In this document: piece after piece, positions 11,558 through 19,600 of the stretch
Layout: each line of letters starts with the position of its first letter
How positions within the stretch are numbered: position 1 is the first letter of the stretch
From: a virus
Length of the DNA: 20,682 nucleotides
UHGV virus genome: UHGV-0140731
Direction: 5' to 3' (one strand)
The notes under the pieces: model-generated
The model's input: only the letters and a program-made list of their open reading frames with translations
Told to the model about the DNA's origin: nothing
Database searches by the model: none
Made by a program: the position numbers and the translations under genes

Positions 11558-12535
11558 TCAAGCCTTAAGAGGCTTTGTGTATGTTCGTGTAATCCAACCA
11601 GTAATAAACTCATCCCCTGATTTAACCTGCACGTAAAGCCATTGACGATCTTTCTTATCTAAAATAGCAACAATTGTGTTTTTGCCAATGCATTCAATCA
11701 CTTCACTATTTAAAGAAGGGCTGACATGTAATCTTACGTTATCACCAGTTATAAACCTAAAACCATTGAGATCTTCCCACTTAATTTCTGTGTTTTCTTT
11801 AATTAATTTTTGTTTTGATATTGGTGCATCCTCATATAGGGATACAGAATATGATTCTGTCTTGTGTATTTGCGATAAGATTTGTTCTTTTGCATAATCA
11901 GCAATGGCACCAAGCAACACTTCTGTTAAAAACCACATAATAATAAACTGAAGCGGGTGAGGGAGCGCCTTAAATGAGTCAATAAACGTCGAACTGGATT
12001 TATTTAATCCTTTGTCTTGAACATCACTTTCGTTGTGAGATGTTTCAATAGCACCTTCAACATAAGCCTGTGCAATTGATGAAAGACCTTGCTCCATTGT
12101 TCTATTAAATAGAGATGTCTTTTTTTCAATATATTGATTTTCTTGTTTTTTTATAATATCTTTTGTTAAATCATCGTAAGTTATATATTCTCGTAAATTT
12201 TTAAGTGTAGCCTCCATACTTTCCAAGCCAGCTTGTTTATTAAAAACTTCTATCTGGCTTTGTAATGACAAAGATTTTTCCGACTGTTTCTGAAAATTTT
12301 CAACATACTTACGGAAAAGATGGTTTATCTCATTCGTTTTTAGTGATGTGTTAAATTTTTTTTGAAGATAATTATCTAATATTTTTTGAGATGTTTTTTC
12401 CAAAACTATATGCAATAGATTTTGTTGCAAAAAATCAAGCGGGGTAGTAAGACCACCCAAACTCACTGATTTTGCTAAATTACTTAACTCGTTATATTTG
12501 GAGCTATTAATACTTGCCATCTTATTCGCCATCAT
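11558..12535 (-). CDS. AT-rich cargo gene: membrane protein with central TM helix and C-terminal SH3b-like domain
   Basis: 325-codon ORF in strongly AT-rich DNA; hydrophobic segment LQFIIMWFLTEVLLGAIADYA; C-terminal ~65 aa resemble bacterial SH3 domains (GDNVRLHVSPSLNSEVIECIGKNTIVAILDKKDRQWLYVQVKSGDEFITGWI). Exact start ambiguous (MMANKMAS). Confidence 0.55.
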   Translation of the reverse strand: MMANKMASINSSKYNELSNLAKSVSLGGLTTPLDFLQQNLLHIVLEKTSQKILDNYLQKKFNTSLKTNEINHLFRKYVENFQKQSEKSLSLQSQIEVFNKQAGLESMEATLKNLREYITYDDLTKDIIKKQENQYIEKKTSLFNRTMEQGLSSIAQAYVEGAIETSHNESDVQDKGLNKSSSTFIDSFKALPHPLQFIIMWFLTEVLLGAIADYAKEQILSQIHKTESYSVSLYEDAPISKQKLIKENTEIKWEDLNGFRFITGDNVRLHVSPSLNSEVIECIGKNTIVAILDKKDRQWLYVQVKSGDEFITGWITRTYTKPLKA

Positions 12536-13028
12536 ATTGTTTTAAACACCCGTCTTTTTTAGCTTCCTTGTAAATACTTGAAATACCATTAAGAGAGAAT
12601 GATGTGATTCGACGCGATCCGATATATACATCCATGTTTTTTTCTTTTGTGGCTGACGCTGACTTCCAAAAAGAATACCATTCCCTACGATTTGGAGCAG
12701 TGTTTTGCGTACCAATATTAAAGCTATCCGGACCAACAATTAAGGTAATTACATCAGCTTTACGAGAAATTGTATCGCGTGTAGAAAAATCAGCATTCTC
12801 TTTCCCTCCGCTTACATACAAATTTCTTCCAGCGATATGATCTTCGGAACCTTCCCTTGCTCCAGCATCACAAGAAAAGTTAATTGTATAGCCATCGTCA
12901 TTGGCTGCAGAAATTTCTCTCCACCCTTGCTCACCTCCTACCGTCCAATCGGTAGAACTTGCCATTGCTGATAATGGCAAGAAAGAGGGCATTAATAAAA
13001 AGCTATACAATGACTTATACAATTTCAT
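12522..13028 (-). CDS. AT-rich cargo gene: secreted/periplasmic protein (signal peptide), unknown function
   Basis: 168-codon ORF; ATG 13026-13028 with AAGGA upstream; N-terminal signal-peptide-like sequence MKLYKSLYSFLLMPSFLPLSAMA. Confidence 0.55.
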   Translation of the reverse strand: MKLYKSLYSFLLMPSFLPLSAMASSTDWTVGGEQGWREISAANDDGYTINFSCDAGAREGSEDHIAGRNLYVSGGKENADFSTRDTISRKADVITLIVGPDSFNIGTQNTAPNRREWYSFWKSASATKEKNMDVYIGSRRITSFSLNGISSIYKEAKKDGCLKQYDGE

Positions 13029-13116
13029 ATTTTTATCCTTTTGGTTTTAGGTATTACAGGCATAGTCCATATTGTTAGATCCACTATGCCCAGAGAATTT
13101 AATATTATTCATTAAA

Positions 13117-13608
13117 TTATGGAGCTACACCCGGCCCCCTAGCTCGTTCTTCAAGCGTACCCTGTACGTTTTGATGGCGCATTCCCGGGGCATTTCTGAT
13201 TGAGTCAATGCCATTTCTTCCAACATCTTCTTTATTGACGGCATTGCTCGCCACCAGCACCCCCCAGCTAGGGATAGCAAAATCAGGAGCGGTTTCGCAT
13301 GCCTTTACCATATAATCGAAAGTGCTTCGATTGATCTCGTTCGCGTCCGGATTTAACAGGCGAGAATATTGATATTTAGCATTTTCGTTGGTTGCGACTT
13401 TATACAGTTCTTGCTGCACCATCGCTTCAGAAAGTTTAAGGCGTTTCATGTCTGAAAGTAACTTCTTGCGCATGGATTCGTCTTGGCTGACAGCAAAGCC
13501 GTAAACGTGCCCAAGGTATTTCGTATAATCGGTACAAATCTCCTTTACACTTGATGCTGCATTAACAGTCCCAGCCATAAATAATAACGGTAGTAATAGT
13601 TTTCTCAT
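13117..13608 (-). CDS. Secreted protein with a Sit-related C-terminal tail (chimeric)
   Basis: Start placed at ATG 13606-13608 (MRKLLLPLLFMAGTVNA, GGTGAGG upstream) rather than the longer track start. The last ~45 aa (SNAVNKEDVGRNGIDSIRNAPGMRHQNVQGTLEERARG) are homologous to a segment of the Sit-like protein (GNAVGVNDLVNKFMNGRGMRREVVQGTLEERARG). Confidence 0.55.
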   Translation of the reverse strand: MRKLLLPLLFMAGTVNAASSVKEICTDYTKYLGHVYGFAVSQDESMRKKLLSDMKRLKLSEAMVQQELYKVATNENAKYQYSRLLNPDANEINRSTFDYMVKACETAPDFAIPSWGVLVASNAVNKEDVGRNGIDSIRNAPGMRHQNVQGTLEERARGPGVAP

Positions 13609-13704
13609 TATAACCTCACCTGCCTTATAACCCATTTAGGGTACATATTTTCGCCTTTAAAAAAAAGAGGTTATTAGATCCATTTGTGTATTTATCATAC
13701 AATT

Positions 13705-13721
13705 AATGCTCTAATAAATTT
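13705..13721. promoter_or_regulatory. P1 C1-repressor-type operator (AATGCTCTAATAAATTT)
   Basis: One mismatch to the P1 C1 operator consensus ATTGCTCTAATAAATTT as I recall it; located between divergent transcription units, upstream of the immI-like promoter. Confidence 0.55.
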
Positions 13722-13759
13722 GTATTTTTAAGTCGCGAATGCTATCTTTTCGCATCATA

Positions 13760-13788
13760 TTGACCTTTTAATCGTTCAGGCTTATAGT
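13760..13788 (+). promoter_or_regulatory. sigma70 promoter candidate (TTGACC-17-TATAGT) for the c4/icd/ant-like operon
   Basis: -35 TTGACC at 13760-13765, 17-nt spacer, -10 TATAGT at 13783-13788, read directly from the sequence. Confidence 0.55.
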
Positions 13789-13919
13789 TCCGCCGTCGTA
13801 GCAAATTCTGCGACCGGGTTTAGCAGCCTGAATACTTACGCGGACAACCGCAGATTTCCGATATTGCGGTATTTTTGTGTCCGTAAACCACGTTACGCCC
13901 GAATTATGGTGGGGCGTGA

Positions 13920-13997
13920 TGGGGAGGCTTCGGCCTGCTGGTTTCGTAAGTGCCAGTCTGCTAACCCCGTCACGTCCTGCCACCTGTTTAGCAGCGG
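13920..13997 (+). ncRNA. Candidate c4-like antisense RNA (immI-type translational repressor)
   Basis: Contains a UUCG-tetraloop hairpin (aggc-ttcg-gcct, 13926-13937) and a 7-bp stem (ctgctaa 13958-13964 / ttagcag 13988-13994). Two short elements, cggcct (13931-13936) and tcgtaagt (13944-13951), are complementary to adjacent target sequence 14016-14028 (acttacgaggccg) covering the icd Shine-Dalgarno. Boundaries are approximate. Confidence 0.4.
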
Positions 13998-14033
13998 GTC
14001 GCAGGTTGTTTATCAACTTACGAGGCCGTAACT

Positions 14034-14255
14034 ATGGTTAATGCCAATCCGTGCGCACGCCAAGAATTCATCTGGCGTTTCTATTCCTGTAAAAAACACC
14101 ACTATCACTTCGTTATCGCAGCAACAGAAGACGAAGCACGCTCTCAATTGCCTGATGGCCCCTGCATTTTTACTGCCCGTTTTTCAACTAACTCGCGCAA
14201 TTCACTTAGTTACTGGAGCCTCCCCTTCTCTGCCGACGTTCAGGGGGGTTTATGA
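14034..14255 (+). CDS. Icd-like small protein (P1 immI 'interference with cell division' analogue), translationally coupled to ant
   Basis: 73-codon ORF; GAGG 8 nt upstream of ATG 14034; stop overlaps the ant start as ATGA (14252-14255). Size and position match P1 icd as I recall it. Confidence 0.55.
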   Translation: MVNANPCARQEFIWRFYSCKKHHYHFVIAATEDEARSQLPDGPCIFTARFSTNSRNSLSYWSLPFSADVQGGL

Positions 14256-15289
14256 AAAAACCTCTCGTCACCCGTAATGAAATAGCCGAAGCGATCGCCC
14301 TGCATACAACCTGTATGCCGACACGGGAGATCCCCGGCGCAATTGCCAACTATTTCATGATAACCAGGCGTTTTTATACCCGAACAGATAAGGCTGTGAT
14401 CAACAGGCTACTGATAGCCGAGATCAGGGATTATTTGATTGAACAAGGACGTCTACGTTACGCAACAGTGGCAGCAGAAATGAGAAAGGAGGCGCGCAGA
14501 ATGACCGGTAATAATTTGAATGTTGAAAAACCAGCACCTGTTGCTTCAGCTACGCCAGCACCAGCCCTGAATGTCATCCCCAACACCGGAGACACAATCG
14601 ACAGCCAAACATTGTTGAAGATGGTCAATGAGGCACGGAAATTATGTAGCGAAAAACCAGTTCGCAACAATGATTTCATTGCCAGAGTTAAGGATGAGCT
14701 TGAAGGAGAAACCTACGAAATTTTCGTAGGTCAAAAAAACGGCGCAGAAATAGATATTATAACCATGACCTACAAACAAGCCCTGCGAGTTGCCGCGCGC
14801 GAGTCAAAAGCGGTCCGCCGTTCGCTGATCGACAAACTAGAAGAATTGCAGCAGGCAAACTCCCCTACCCCATCGATCCCCCAAACATTACCAGAAGCCC
14901 TACGCCTGGCTGCCGAGTTGGCAGAACAGAAATTGCAGCTGGAACAACAGCTGGTGGCCGCAGCCCCTAAAGTCGATTTTGCCGACCGGGTATCAGTGGC
15001 TAATGGAATCCTGATCGGGAACTTTGCAAAGGTCGTTGGACTTAAGCAAAACGCCCTTTTCTCATGGTTGCGCCAGAACGGCATTCTCATGGCTTTTGGT
15101 GCGCGCAAAAACGTACCGCGCCAGCAGTACATTAACGCCGGGTATTTCACGGTGAAAGAAGTGGTGCTGGATGATGAAAATGGCTACCAGATACGGCTGA
15201 CGCCCCAATTAACGGGTAAAGGCCAGCAGTGGTTAACTCGCAAGCTACTTGATGCTGGCTTGTTAAAACCAGTGGCGTCCTTGTCTTAA
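14252..15289 (+). CDS. ant: Phage antirepressor Ant (C-terminal KilAC/ANT domain)
   Basis: 345-codon ORF; C-terminal ~140 aa (IPQTLPEALRLAAELAEQK...GNFAKVVGL...GKGQQWLTRKLLDAGLL) form the ANT/KilAC domain and are paralogous to the C-terminus of the downstream KilA. Confidence 0.8.
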   Translation: MKKPLVTRNEIAEAIALHTTCMPTREIPGAIANYFMITRRFYTRTDKAVINRLLIAEIRDYLIEQGRLRYATVAAEMRKEARRMTGNNLNVEKPAPVASATPAPALNVIPNTGDTIDSQTLLKMVNEARKLCSEKPVRNNDFIARVKDELEGETYEIFVGQKNGAEIDIITMTYKQALRVAARESKAVRRSLIDKLEELQQANSPTPSIPQTLPEALRLAAELAEQKLQLEQQLVAAAPKVDFADRVSVANGILIGNFAKVVGLKQNALFSWLRQNGILMAFGARKNVPRQQYINAGYFTVKEVVLDDENGYQIRLTPQLTGKGQQWLTRKLLDAGLLKPVASLS

Positions 15290-15698
15290 CGTATTCAGAC
15301 CAAGATTTGCCATAAATTACAGGCATGTGTACGATATGCCCAACCCTGTTTTTCAGGGGAGGCGCAACGTTATGCGGGGGTTATGAACTCCTGGATGCGT
15401 AGCCTCCAGACAGAAAAAACCCTCGCCACAACGTTGCATGGAGGCAACCAGCGAGGGCATTCCTTATGTCTGATCAACAAGAGGATAGCCGCAAGCAGTT
15501 GCTGTTGCAAGTGTGCGGAGCTTCGTAATGACTCTTCAAAAAGCTTGCAAGTGGATTGTGACCAACATCATTGTTCCTGTCATCATCGGAGCGTCAAGTT
15601 CTGTGTTGGCATCAGTGATTGCCTCACTTCTCCACATTGCATAACAACATTGGAGGGCGTTAGTTCCGCAGTGTAACAGCAGCGCGTTGCGCCCGAAC

Positions 15699-15734
15699 AG
15701 GCCACAGGGTAAAACCTGTGGCCTTTTTCGTTTT
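15699..15734 (+). terminator. Rho-independent terminator
   Basis: aggccacagg-gtaaaa-cctgtggcct (10-bp GC-rich stem) followed by ttttcgtttt. Confidence 0.65.
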
Positions 15735-15843
15735 AGCCAGCCACAAATCCACATTGAAAAACGCCTTATACAAAAAAACCTGCCAGCGAACTGACAGGTT
15801 TCTGAGCAGATCGACCAACCCGATCTGGATCGGACTGGAAAAA

Positions 15844-17902: not shown

Positions 17903-18099
17903 TACAATCGTTGCGGGTGCTTGAGGCTATCTGCTTCAGGCATTACCCGAAAAGCAGATAGAAGAAAGCCCCAGATAACATTACGCGTCCTGCAAGACGC
18001 TTAACATTAATCTGAGGCCAATTTCATGCTAGACACATGTAGGTTAGCCTCTTACGTGCCGAAAGGCACGGAGAAGCAGGCTATTGTTAACACCAAGCT

Positions 18100-19600
18100 G
18101 TAATGTCCCCTTTGAACCATTCTAAAATGTCCCCAGACAATTCTCTGGGGGATTTTTCATGATCAAAGAGACTGTTACGATGAGTCATAAGGAACTCCAC
18201 CGACTTCAGATTATTCAGGAACAAGCTGCGGCACGCATTGGCATTTCTATTCGGCAGGTTAAACGTCTGGTGCAACGGTATAGAAATGAAGGGCCTTCTG
18301 GTCTGGTTTCCCACCGACGTGGAAAGCGTCCTAATAATTCCTTTTCTACTGAATTCAGAGCAACAGTAATTTCACTCCTCAAAGGCCGTTACGCTGATTT
18401 TGGACCTACGTTTGCGTGCGAAAAATTGCGCGAGATACACGGTTTATCTTTATCCGTTGAAACTCTCAGAAAGTGGATGATAGAAGAGGGGTTATGGCGT
18501 GAACGCCGTCGTAAAATTGCCCGTATATATCAACGCCGCATGCGACGACCATCTTACGGTGAACTGATCCAGATTGATGGCTCACCTCATGACTGGTTTG
18601 AAAATCGAGGCCCCAGATGTACACTGATCGTTTTCATTGATGATGCCACCAGTGCGTTGATGGCGTTGCGTTTTGTGCCTGCTGAAACAACCCGGGCTTA
18701 CATGGAAACCCTCCGGGGTTACCTTAATGATCATGGCGTACCGCTCGCTCTCTACTCTGATAGACACAGTATATTCAGGGTAAATAACCCAGAGCGGGAA
18801 GGTGAGCTGACCCAGTTCACTCGTGCGATAAAGACACTGGGCATCGAGCCAATCCATGCCAACAGCCCGCAGGCAAAAGGGCGGGTAGAGCGCGCCAATC
18901 AGACACTACAGGACAGGCTGGTCAAAGAAATGCGGCTTCAGAATATCAGTGATATTGAAACAGCAAATGCATGGTTGCCGACCTTTATTGAAGCCTATAA
19001 CAACCGGTTCGCTACGTCGCCTCGTACTACTGATAATGCTCATCTTGATGTGCACCATTCTGAAGAGGAACTGGGTTATATCTTCAGCCTACAGGCGAAG
19101 CGCGTTCTGTCTAAAAATCTCACTTTCCAGTACAAAAGCAGTGCGTTTCAGGTACGCAGTGAGGGCCGGGGATATCGACTTAGGCATTCGGTTGTTACTG
19201 TATGCGAGAACTTTGACGGTGAAATTAACGTTCTGTATGACGGGAAAGCGCTGGGCTGGGAAAAGTATGTTGATGGCCCGGAGCCTATACCACCGGATGA
19301 TGAAAAGAGTGTCCATGAACGAGTGGATAATGCCCGTATTGATTTACGCTCAAAATACTATGTTAAACCTAAAGCTGACCATCCCTGGCTTACGCGCCGA
19401 ACGCAAAGTCATCAGCAAGTTAAGCCCCCGAAGTTACCTAAAAAGAAGCCTGATCCCGATAAAAAAGATTGAAACCAAGATCGATTCGGTTGAGTGCATA
19501 TCCATTCATAGGGTAGATTCTTAAGTCGCGTTTCTGGTGTTCATTTTCGGGTGGTTTGTTACTTGTTTTACCGGGGATATGCCAGAAACGCGCTGAGTCA
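18100..19600 (+). mobile_element. Insertion sequence carrying a DDE transposase (ends not defined)
   Basis: Single transposase ORF flanked by non-coding DNA; no clean terminal inverted repeats could be defined by eye, so boundaries are approximate. Confidence 0.3.
18159..19472 (+). CDS. DDE transposase (rve/integrase-core type; IS481- or ISNCY-like)
   Basis: 437-codon ORF with N-terminal HTH (IGISIRQVKRLVQRY) and catalytic-core motifs (LIQIDGS..., LYSDRHSIF, SPQAKGRVERANQTLQDRL); GGGGGA upstream of the ATG. Confidence 0.8.
   Translation: MIKETVTMSHKELHRLQIIQEQAAARIGISIRQVKRLVQRYRNEGPSGLVSHRRGKRPNNSFSTEFRATVISLLKGRYADFGPTFACEKLREIHGLSLSVETLRKWMIEEGLWRERRRKIARIYQRRMRRPSYGELIQIDGSPHDWFENRGPRCTLIVFIDDATSALMALRFVPAETTRAYMETLRGYLNDHGVPLALYSDRHSIFRVNNPEREGELTQFTRAIKTLGIEPIHANSPQAKGRVERANQTLQDRLVKEMRLQNISDIETANAWLPTFIEAYNNRFATSPRTTDNAHLDVHHSEEELGYIFSLQAKRVLSKNLTFQYKSSAFQVRSEGRGYRLRHSVVTVCENFDGEINVLYDGKALGWEKYVDGPEPIPPDDEKSVHERVDNARIDLRSKYYVKPKADHPWLTRRTQSHQQVKPPKLPKKKPDPDKKD

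What the first reader, a model, noticed from the sequence alone, without database searches (positions are those of the whole stretch)
13700..14260. immI-like antisense control region: c4-like RNA with two elements complementary to the icd ribosome-binding site
Downstream of a near-consensus sigma70 promoter (13760-13788) and a C1-type operator (13705-13721), two short elements in the candidate RNA, CGGCCT (13931-13936) and TCGTAAGT (13944-13951), are complementary to contiguous sequence ACTTACGAGGCCG (14016-14028) overlapping the GAGG Shine-Dalgarno of the 73-codon icd-like ORF, which is ATGA-coupled to ant. A second near-copy of the target (ACTTACGCGG, 13834-13843) lies upstream. This matches the published logic of P1 c4 RNA (a'/b' pairing with a1/b1 and a2/b2), and a UUCG-tetraloop hairpin and a 7-bp stem give the RNA plausible structure.
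Basis: partly seen in the sequence, partly recalled or inferred. Interest (0 to 1): 0.6.

Follow-up and report, generated by a model that had tools for sequence, protein, structure and literature searches.

The report
P1-type c4 antisense immunity region
This is the well-known immI switch of a P1-like phage-plasmid, in which a small processed antisense RNA (c4) blocks translation of icd and the antirepressor ant; here it carries a recognition loop different from those of P1 and P7, so the find is ordinary but correctly spotted.

Summary
Window 13700-14260 is the immI control region of a P1-like (Punavirus) phage-plasmid. It is 94% identical to P1, 95.5% to P7, and 99% to phage SJ46 and 84 plasmid records.

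Rfam places C4 antisense RNA at 13902-13987 (70.8 bits, cut-off 45) and its upstream a1/b1 target element at 13782-13834. The C1 operator, both c4 promoters, icd, and the ATGA-coupled ant1/ant2 map base for base onto annotated P1 features.

One detail is wrong. TCGTAAGT (13944-13951) is the true b' loop. CGGCCT (13931-13936) is not a recognition element; it is the 3' arm of the UUCG hairpin. The true a' is CTGCTAA (13958-13964), which pairs with TTAGCAG at 13988-13994 (a2) and 13820-13826 (a1).

In 119 P1-like loci, b' covaries with b1 and b2 in 118, and a' covaries with a1 and a2 in all 119. In 69 distant c4 loci, the hairpin arm shows essentially no complementarity to the target beyond permuted pairings.

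The window combines a P7-type a' with a D6-type b' (GTAAGT). This is a common natural allele, predicted to be heteroimmune at immI to both P1 and P7. Verdict: already known, low interest.

The parts
13705..13721 (+). C1 repressor operator Oc4 (formerly Op51), AATGCTCTAATAAATTT
   Evidence: Identical to the annotated P1 operator at NC_005856 48140-48156, mapped by pairwise alignment.
13719..13748 (+). Promoter P2c4 (formerly P51a), overlapped by the operator; -35 at 13719-13725, -10 TATCTT at 13743-13748
   Evidence: Identical to the P1 annotation. It did not pass the simple consensus scan.
13760..13788 (+). Promoter P1c4 (formerly P51b), TTGACC-17-TATAGT
   Evidence: 10 of 12 consensus matches. 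Identical to the P1 annotation.
13782..13834 (+). c4-a1b1 structured leader element (two hairpins; a1 sits in the second loop)
   Evidence: Rfam RF03163, 56.2 bits against a cut-off of 46.7. Fold.
13820..13826 (+). a1 target site TTAGCAG, complementary to a'
   Evidence: Maps to the P1 a1 site. It matches a' in 119 of 119 relatives.
13834..13841 (+). b1 target site ACTTACGC (7 of 8 complementary to b', as in P1)
   Evidence: Maps to the P1 b1 site. Its hexamer core matches b' in 119 of 119 relatives.
13908..13984 (+). Mature c4 antisense RNA, 77 nt by homology with P1 (Rfam match spans 13902-13987)
   Evidence: Rfam RF01695, 70.8 bits against a cut-off of 45. Maps onto the P1 misc_RNA c4. MFE -45.7 kcal/mol, z = -5.2.
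13925..13936 (+). A structural element, not a recognition element.
   Evidence: Fold. The stem is kept by compensatory changes in 17 sequence types among distant c4 loci, with no complementarity to the target.
13943..13951 (+). Loop of hairpin 2 carrying b' (UCGUAAGU, 13944-13951; variable hexamer GTAAGT, 13946-13951)
   Evidence: 9-nt loop in the MFE and centroid folds. Complementary to b2 and b1. The hexamer differs from P1 (ACTAAC) and P7 (ACAATC) and equals that of phage D6.
13958..13964 (+). a' element CTGCTAA, a single-stranded 7-nt junction (P7 type; P1 has CTGTCAA)
   Evidence: Unpaired in the fold. Complementary to a1 and a2.
13988..13994 (+). a2 target site TTAGCAG, just 3' of c4
   Evidence: Maps to the P1 a2 site. 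Covaries with a' in 119 of 119 loci.
14016..14025 (+). b2 target site ACTTACGA (14016-14023), overlapping the icd Shine-Dalgarno GAGG (14022-14025)
   Evidence: Maps to the P1 b2 site. Covaries with b' in 118 of 119 loci. Cognate duplex -19.2 kcal/mol against -8.4 to -14.4 for the window's c4 loop on non-cognate targets.
14034..14255 (+). icd, 73 codons, cell-division inhibitor whose translation is needed for ant expression
   Evidence: 96% identical to P1 Icd. NCBIfam NF033153 phage_ICD_like, E = 4e-14.
14252..15289 (+). ant1 (345 codons), start overlapping the icd stop as ATGA; the in-frame ant2 start is at 14501, preceded by AAGGAGG
   Evidence: 90% identical to P1 Ant1. Pfam ANT/KilAC, E = 1e-30. 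ant2 start read from the sequence.

Best explanation
The region is the immI operon control region of a P1-like phage-plasmid.

Transcription starts at two tandem promoters. P2c4 is overlapped by a C1 operator. P1c4 lies outside the operator. Both read through a structured leader (a1/b1), the c4 gene, and then icd and ant1/ant2.

The 77-nt c4 RNA (13908-13984) is cut out of this transcript; in P1 and P7 its precursor is an RNase P substrate. It folds into a long closing stem that carries a UUCG hairpin, a second hairpin whose 9-nt loop presents b' (UCGUAAGU), and a 7-nt single-stranded junction, a' (CUGCUAA).

a' pairs with a2 (13988-13994). b' pairs with b2 (14016-23). The conserved loop residues UU can extend the b' duplex by G-U pairs across the GAGG Shine-Dalgarno sequence of icd. 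This blocks icd translation. Because ant1 is coupled to icd through the ATGA overlap, antirepressor synthesis is shut off and C1-dependent lysogeny is protected.

The a1/b1 copy upstream is a second matched site of less certain role.

The variable hexamer of b', together with a', sets immunity specificity. This element has a P7-type a' and a D6-type b', so its c4 should not repress P1 or P7 ant, and theirs should not repress its own.

Shown here: homology, RNA family membership, fold, positions, and three-site covariation. Inferred from P1/P7 work: processing, the translational block, coupling, and heteroimmunity.
For: - Rfam C4 scores 70.8 bits (cut-off 45) and c4-a1b1 scores 56.2 bits (cut-off 46.7), both full length.
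- The region is 94% identical to P1, 95.5% to P7 and 99% to SJ46 over 600-700 nt, with icd, c4 and ant annotated under the matches. 600 plasmid records match, 84 of them at 99% or more.
- Every annotated P1 feature (Oc4, P2c4, P1c4, a1, b1, c4, a2, b2, icd, ant1, ant2, IHF site) maps to the window. Operators and promoters are identical.
- In the three-way alignment, the differences between window, P1 and P7 cluster in the b', b1, b2, a', a1 and a2 elements, and they are compensatory.
- Across 119 complete P1-like loci there are 7 b' hexamers and 2 a' types, giving 13 haplotypes. b1 and b2 match b' in 118 of 119 loci, and a1 and a2 match a' in 119 of 119.
- Across 69 distant c4 loci, the longest b'-to-downstream complement averages 8.8 nt against 4.5 when pairings are permuted, and a' averages 6.7 nt against 4.0.
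- The fold places b' in a loop and a' in a single-stranded junction, at -45.7 kcal/mol with z = -5.2.
- Cognate loop-target duplexes are about -19 kcal/mol. Non-cognate ones range from -8.4 to -14.5.
- Icd is 96% and Ant1 90% identical to their P1 counterparts.
- The mechanism is published for P1 and P7: PMC12197685, PMC8198154, PMC8546580; RNase P processing is covered in PMC11143913.
Against: There is no expression, processing or repression data for this particular element. The role of a1/b1 is called only 'putative' even in the P1 annotation. Heteroimmunity towards P1 and P7 is predicted from base pairing only. The surveyed loci are not phylogenetically independent; they comprise 13 haplotypes, not 119 independent events. 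The element sits in a window with an IS insertion and other rearrangements, so the host replicon could be a defective prophage in which the circuit is intact but idle.
Confidence: 0.93

Rival explanations
1. One reading: c4 recognises one contiguous 13-nt target (14016-14028) through two discontinuous segments, CGGCCU (13931-36, from the UUCG hairpin) and UCGUAAGU (13944-51). In this reading the hairpin arm helps to mask the Shine-Dalgarno sequence.
For: The complementarity is exact in the window. It is also present in P1 and P7, because both segments are invariant. An isolated CGGCCU:AGGCCG duplex would be worth -9.9 kcal/mol.
Against: - CGGCCU is the 3' arm plus two loop bases of a very stable UUCG hairpin stacked on a 17-bp stem. 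Using it would mean melting the core of the RNA and skipping the 7-nt arm of hairpin 2.
- The P1 annotation names other sites as a' and a2.
- In 69 distant c4 loci with 17 hairpin-1 sequences, the equivalent arm shows 3.09 nt of complementarity to the post-b2 sequence against 2.94 when permuted. The post-b2 sequence (AGGCTGCC and the like) does not change with the hairpin.
- In L104 the hairpin is the same, but the target reads GGAGCCG.
- Shine-Dalgarno masking is explained more simply by the conserved loop residues UUUC pairing with GAGG.
Confidence: 0.05
2. The segment encodes a small c4 repressor protein rather than an RNA, as early P1 records annotated it. The candidate ORFs are 13864-14031 and 13877-14041 on the + strand.
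For: ORFs of 54-55 codons exist on the + strand. The old record X15639 lists 'c4: CDS'.
Against: The covariance model scores well above its cut-off, with intact base pairs. Variation among relatives is compensatory at the RNA level, at three separate non-coding sites. The later P1 and P7 annotations, and the literature, define c4 as a 77-nt antisense RNA.
Confidence: 0.01
3. The circuit is intact in sequence but functionally idle, because the carrier is a decaying, non-inducible P1-like plasmid.
For: An IS transposase (18159-19472) abuts a truncated hok/sok leader. The sim region is replaced, and a 480-bp insertion separates ant from kilA.
Against: All immI parts are intact and mutually matched: operator, promoters, a1/b1, c4, a2/b2, and open icd, ant1, kilA and repL frames. 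Nearly identical immI alleles occur in isolated phages such as SJ46. Such rearrangement hot spots are typical of viable P1-like elements (PMC6906374).
Confidence: 0.05

Closest known systems
Bacteriophage P1 immI operon (Oc4-P2c4/P1c4-a1b1-c4-a2b2-icd-ant1/2), NC_005856 48140-49731
   Same: The architecture, spacing, operator and promoters are identical. The 77-nt c4 has the same fold. Icd is 96% and Ant1 90% identical. The flanking synteny is the same: tail and pmgC genes on the left, kilA-repL on the right.
   Different: The b' hexamer is GTAAGT instead of ACTAAC (5 of 6 positions differ), with matching changes in b1 and b2. a' is CTGCTAA instead of CTGTCAA, with matching a1 and a2. The sim genes upstream are replaced, and there is a 480-bp insertion after ant.
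Bacteriophage P7 immI (c4 of P7), NC_050152 50853-52448
   Same: The a', a1 and a2 type is the same (CTGCTAA/TTAGCAG), and the region is 95.5% identical overall.
   Different: The b' hexamer is GTAAGT against ACAATC (4 of 6 positions differ). The predicted window c4 to P7 b2 duplex is -9.2 kcal/mol, against -19.2 for the cognate pair.
Phage D6 c4 (MF356679, locus L123 1629-1714)
   Same: The b' loop is identical (UUUCGUAAGU), and C4 and c4-a1b1 both hit Rfam.
   Different: D6 has the P1-type a' (CTGTCAA). Its c4-icd is followed by a different, Roi-like antirepressor and sits next to repL, in another genome context.
Rfam C4 antisense RNA family RF01695 / c4-a1b1 RF03163 (Weinberg et al. 2010, PMC2864571)
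   Same: Both models match over their full length above the curated cut-offs. The family-wide rule also holds here: the loop of hairpin 2 is complementary to a site that ends in the Shine-Dalgarno sequence of the downstream gene, about 54 nt past the RNA.
   Different: Most family members have GCCGG/CCGGU as the hairpin-2 stem and other hairpin-1 sequences. The P1 group has GCUGG/CCAGU.
P22 sar RNA / ant control
   Same: This is also an antisense RNA that blocks antirepressor translation in a temperate phage (PMC12197685).
   Different: sar is a true cis-antisense transcript from the opposite strand. c4 is encoded on the same strand as its target and acts through two short complementary elements. 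There is no sequence relation.

Membership tests
Rfam RF01695 C4 antisense RNA | Covariance-model score at or above the curated gathering score, full-length match | tested here: met
   70.8 bits against 45, model positions 1-87 of 87, window 13902-13987 on the + strand.
Rfam RF01695 C4 antisense RNA | Fold: long closing stem enclosing two hairpins, with a single-stranded junction before the 3' strand of the stem | tested here: met
   The MFE equals the centroid. It has a 17-bp closing stem, a UUCG hairpin, a 6-bp hairpin with a 9-nt loop, and a 7-nt junction; z = -5.2.
Rfam RF01695 C4 antisense RNA | Loop (b') and junction (a') complementary to sites a2/b2 in front of the downstream gene, with b2 at the ribosome-binding site | tested here: met
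   a' 13958-64 pairs with a2 13988-94, and b' 13944-51 pairs with b2 14016-23, which overlaps GAGG. Covariation holds in 118-119 of 119 close loci and in 69 distant loci.
Rfam RF01695 C4 antisense RNA | Released as a stable RNA of about 77 nt by processing (RNase P at the 5' end) | not testable with these tools
   Known for P1 and P7 only from the literature (PMC11143913 ref. 222, PMC8546580 ref. 37). The window keeps the identical 5' and 3' ends (GGUGGGG...GCCACC).
Rfam RF03163 c4-a1b1 | Model score above cut-off, with a1 in the second hairpin loop and b1 just 3' of it, both matching the cognate c4 | tested here: met
   56.2 bits against 46.7 at 13782-13834. a1 is at 13820-26 and b1 at 13834-41. 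Fold. Covariation.
P1/P7 immI operon | C1 operator overlapping the upstream one of two tandem promoters | tested here: met
   The operator and both promoters are identical in sequence and spacing to the annotated P1 features. P1c4 was also found by the consensus scan.
P1/P7 immI operon | Gene order c4 - icd - ant1/ant2, with the icd stop overlapping the ant1 start | tested here: met
   icd is at 14034-14255, ant1 at 14252-15289 (ATGA overlap), and ant2 starts at ATG 14501. Identities are 96% and 90%. NF033153 and PF03374 hit.
P1/P7 immI operon | c4-dependent repression of ant, and icd translation required for ant expression | not testable with these tools
   This needs reporter or genetic assays. 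It is inferred from P1 work.
P1 immI specificity type | b' ACTAAC with b1/b2 GTTAGT, and a' CTGTCAA | tested here: not met
   The window has b' GTAAGT and a' CTGCTAA.
P7 immI specificity type | b' ACAATC with b1/b2 GATTGT, and a' CTGCTAA | tested here: not met
   a' matches but b' does not: GTAAGT against ACAATC.
D6-type b' allele | b' GTAAGT with b1/b2 ACTTAC | tested here: met
   The b' loop is identical to that of phage D6 c4. 23 of 123 scanned loci share it, and 17 of 119 complete loci share the full window haplotype.

The most novel reading that the evidence does not exclude
P1-like phage-plasmids may carry an allelic series of antisense immunity specificities. At least 7 b' hexamers and 2 a' heptamers were seen here, and they reassort freely into 13 haplotypes. 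Each allele is kept matched at three separate sites (c4, a1/b1, a2/b2). The window is one reassortant, with a P7-type a' and a D6-type b'. If this series has not yet been catalogued, it would give a simple immI typing scheme for these plasmids and a natural set of orthogonal small RNA and target pairs.
Probability: 0.3. Interest if true: 0.4.

Novelty: already known. Interest (0 to 1): 0.15.

Why it matters
For this window it matters mainly as annotation. It fixes the identity of the replicon as a P1-like phage-plasmid. It gives exact coordinates for c4 and its four target sites, and it corrects which bases are the recognition elements.

The allele call (P7-type a' with D6-type b') predicts that this element can coexist with, and be superinfected by, P1 and P7 as far as immI is concerned. 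That is relevant to how P1-like plasmids, frequent carriers of resistance genes, share hosts.

The survey done in passing shows how tightly three-site complementarity is maintained (118 of 119 loci) despite recombination. That is a neat population-level confirmation of the 1990 model, but not a new mechanism.

Tried and rejected
I tested it against distant c4 loci and rejected it.
- Protein-coding c4. Rejected on covariation and on the Rfam structure.
- Literature on c4 alleles. Five full-text searches found only general descriptions of P1/P7 c4. The original papers and the D6 genome paper are not held. Whether the b' allele series has been published therefore stays open.
- Genome-contig scan with Icd. 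It gave only 4 loci and added nothing.
- First regular expression for the haplotype table. It matched nothing because of a register error. It was fixed.
- Rfam E-value scan of the 480-bp insertion. It gave only sub-threshold hints: rdlD at E = 0.41 and sok at E = 0.9.
- Pfam and NCBIfam searches. They found nothing for the two ORFs that replace the P1 sim genes or for the small ORFs in the insertion.
Full report
**What is in the sequence**

- CGGCCT at 13931-13936.
- TCGTAAGT at 13944-13951.
- ACTTACGAGGCCG at 14016-14028.
- ACTTACGCGG at 13834-13843.
- A 73-codon ORF at 14034-14255, preceded by GAGG (14022-14025). Its stop overlaps the ATG of a 345-codon ORF as ATGA at 14252-14255.

The promoter scan finds exactly one sigma-70-like site in 13600-14300: TTGACC-17-TATAGT at 13760-13788.

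**Identity of the region**

An Rfam scan of the whole window gives three hits above the curated cut-offs:
- C4 antisense RNA (RF01695) at 13902-13987, + strand, 70.8 bits against 45.
- The c4-a1b1 target element (RF03163) at 13782-13834, 56.2 bits against 46.7.
- A hok/sok leader at 17915-18085.

BLAST of 13600-14300 against phage records gives 94.3% identity to P1 over the full length, 95.5% to P7, and 99% to SJ46 and three 'P1' records. Under the matches, icd, c4 and ant1 are annotated. Against plasmids, 600 records match, 84 of them at 99% or more, almost all from Escherichia and Salmonella. The whole window is syntenic with P1-like phages: tail fibre, baseplate, sit, pmgB, tube and pmgC on the minus strand, then c4-icd-ant-kilA-repL on the plus strand.

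**Mapping P1 features onto the window**

The richly annotated P1 record and the P7 record were aligned to the window, and P1 features were projected by pairwise alignment:
- The C1 operator Oc4 (AATGCTCTAATAAATTT) maps to 13705-13721 and is identical.
- P2c4 maps to 13719-13748 and P1c4 to 13760-13788. Both are identical.
- a1 maps to 13820-13826 and b1 to 13834-13841.
- The 77-nt c4 RNA maps to 13908-13984.
- a2 maps to 13988-13994 and b2 to 14016-14023.
- icd maps to 14034-14255, ant1 to 14252-15289, and ant2 starts at ATG 14501.

Icd is 96% and Ant1 90% identical to P1. Icd hits NCBIfam phage_ICD_like and Ant hits Pfam ANT/KilAC.

**Structure of the RNA**

The 77-mer folds at -45.7 kcal/mol, with the MFE equal to the centroid. 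None of 200 shuffles folds as well (z = -5.2). The fold has four parts:
- A 17-bp closing stem.
- Hairpin 1, AGGC-UUCG-GCCU.
- Hairpin 2, with a 6-bp stem and the 9-nt loop UUCGUAAGU.
- A 7-nt unpaired junction, CUGCUAA.

The loop carries b' and the junction is a'. This is exactly where the P1 annotation requires them to be for pairing with b2 and a2.

The first, CGGCCT, consists of the last two loop bases plus the 3' arm of hairpin 1. Its complement AGGCCG (14023-14028) is the Shine-Dalgarno region. Both are invariant in P1, P7 and the window, so close relatives cannot test the idea.

I therefore collected distant c4 genes from IMG/VR with a pattern that leaves hairpin 1 free. This gave 69 unique loci with 17 hairpin-1 sequences, 31 b' loops and 22 a' junctions. 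Against 200-500 permuted pairings:
- The b' loop has on average an 8.8-nt perfect complement 35-85 nt downstream, ending in the GGAGG of the next gene. Permuted pairings give 4.5 nt (sd 0.2).
- a' has 6.7 nt against 4.0 (sd 0.14).
- The hairpin-1 arm has 3.09 nt against 2.94 (sd 0.06; 8 of 500 permutations reach it), a difference of 0.15 nt. The sequence after b2 (AGGCTGCC, AGGTTGCC and similar) stays the same whatever the hairpin is.

Hairpin 1 is therefore structural; its stem is maintained by compensatory changes. The Shine-Dalgarno sequence is covered more simply, because the conserved 5' loop residues UUUC pair with GAGG by C-G, U-A and two U-G pairs as a continuation of the b'/b2 helix.

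**Covariation among close relatives**

Together with the window, P1 and P7, these hold 123 c4 copies with seven b' hexamers:

| b' hexamer | type | copies |
|---|---|---|
| ACAATC | P7 | 42 |
| ACTAAC | P1 | 25 |
| GTAAGT | window | 23 |
| ATTCGT | - | 15 |
| ATGTAC | - | 15 |
| ACAAGT | - | 2 |
| TTGAAC | - | 1 |

In the 119 loci where all six elements could be read, there are 13 haplotypes. b1 is the exact complement of b' in all 119, b2 in 118, and a1 and a2 of a' in all 119. The two a' types (CTGCTAA, CTGTCAA) occur with most b' types.

The one exception, L043, has the b2 of P1 with the b' and b1 of another type, as expected of a recombinant.

**The allele in the window**

The window has a' CTGCTAA, as in P7, and b' GTAAGT. 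That hexamer differs from P1 at 5 of 6 positions and from P7 at 4 of 6. It is identical to the b' of phage D6, which has the other a'. Seventeen of the 119 loci share the full window haplotype.

Predicted loop-target duplexes are about -19 kcal/mol for cognate pairs. The window's c4 gives -8.4 on the P1 target and -9.2 on the P7 target, values that reflect only the invariant flanks. The inference is that this element is heteroimmune at immI to both P1 and P7. This is a prediction from base pairing, in line with the published explanation of P1/P7 heteroimmunity (PMC12197685, PMC6906374).

**Mechanism**

The mechanism is taken from P1/P7 work and is inferred for this element. C1 limits transcription at Oc4/P2c4. 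The transcript from P1c4 and P2c4 carries c4, icd and ant. c4 is processed out, and its precursor is an RNase P substrate (PMC11143913). c4 then binds a2/b2 and prevents ribosome binding at icd. Because ant depends on icd translation (P1 annotation; PMC8198154), no antirepressor is made and C1 repression holds.

**Novelty**

The system is textbook, curated in Rfam, and annotated in P1 and P7. This allele is present at 99% identity in many records. I could not find a paper that lists the b' allele series. The D6 genome paper, which may do so, is not held. The allele series is therefore given as the 'novel case', with modest probability.

Noticed in passing
window 15290-15775: A 480-bp insertion lies between the ant1 stop and the kilA operator/promoter. 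It is absent from P1, P7, SJ46 and every phage record. It is present in 21 plasmid records, mostly Escherichia albertii P1-like plasmids. It holds a 38-codon hydrophobic ORF at 15528-15644 (MTLQKACKWIVTNIIVPVIIGASSSVLASVIASLLHIA), followed by a hairpin and T-run near 15700-15735. Rfam gives only sub-threshold hints: rdlD on the minus strand at E = 0.41 and sok at E = 0.9. It may be a type I toxin-antitoxin moron.
   Followed up: partly
window 17915-18085 and 18159-19472: A full-length hok/sok leader (Rfam RF01794, 115.9 bits) is followed at once by an IS transposase ORF of 437 aa with HTH and rve domains. Homology to related phages stops at 18084. The model's final AUG reads AUU here. The hok toxin gene therefore looks cut off by the IS insertion.
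   Followed up: partly
window 12522-13635, minus strand: The P1 superimmunity genes simABC are replaced by two ORFs of 172 aa (13117-13635) and 168 aa (12522-13028). Neither has a Pfam or NCBIfam family above cut-off. Only the stretch that corresponds to simA (13477-13635) and its promoter still aligns with P1. P7 carries yet another pair of genes at this spot.
   Followed up: partly
L043 (IMGVR_UViG_2565956613_000015), c4 near 125 on the minus strand: This is the only one of 119 loci where the three b sites disagree. b' is ATTCGT and b1 is ACGAAT, but b2 is GTTAGT, the P1 type. It appears to be a recombinant whose own c4 should not be able to mask its icd ribosome-binding site through b.
   Followed up: no
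L104 3356-3437 and 3463-3548: This is a more distant c4 locus, with b' TTGAAC. Its upstream a1/b1 element scores as Rfam isrK (51.3 bits) rather than c4-a1b1. That suggests the Salmonella IsrK small RNA is the a1/b1 leader of a c4-type module.
   Followed up: no
L124 (JAFAFU010000019.1, 2.9-kb contig of a 'Bacillota bacterium' MAG): This contig encodes an Icd 100% identical to the window's. It is most likely an Escherichia phage-plasmid fragment mis-binned into the MAG.
   Followed up: no
L128-L247 (distant c4 loci): Across very diverse viral contigs, the c4 hairpin-2 loop is complementary to a site about 54 nt downstream of the RNA. That site ends in the GGAGG of a gene that often starts MATT... 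or MAN.... The c4 module thus controls several different downstream genes, not only icd.
   Followed up: partly
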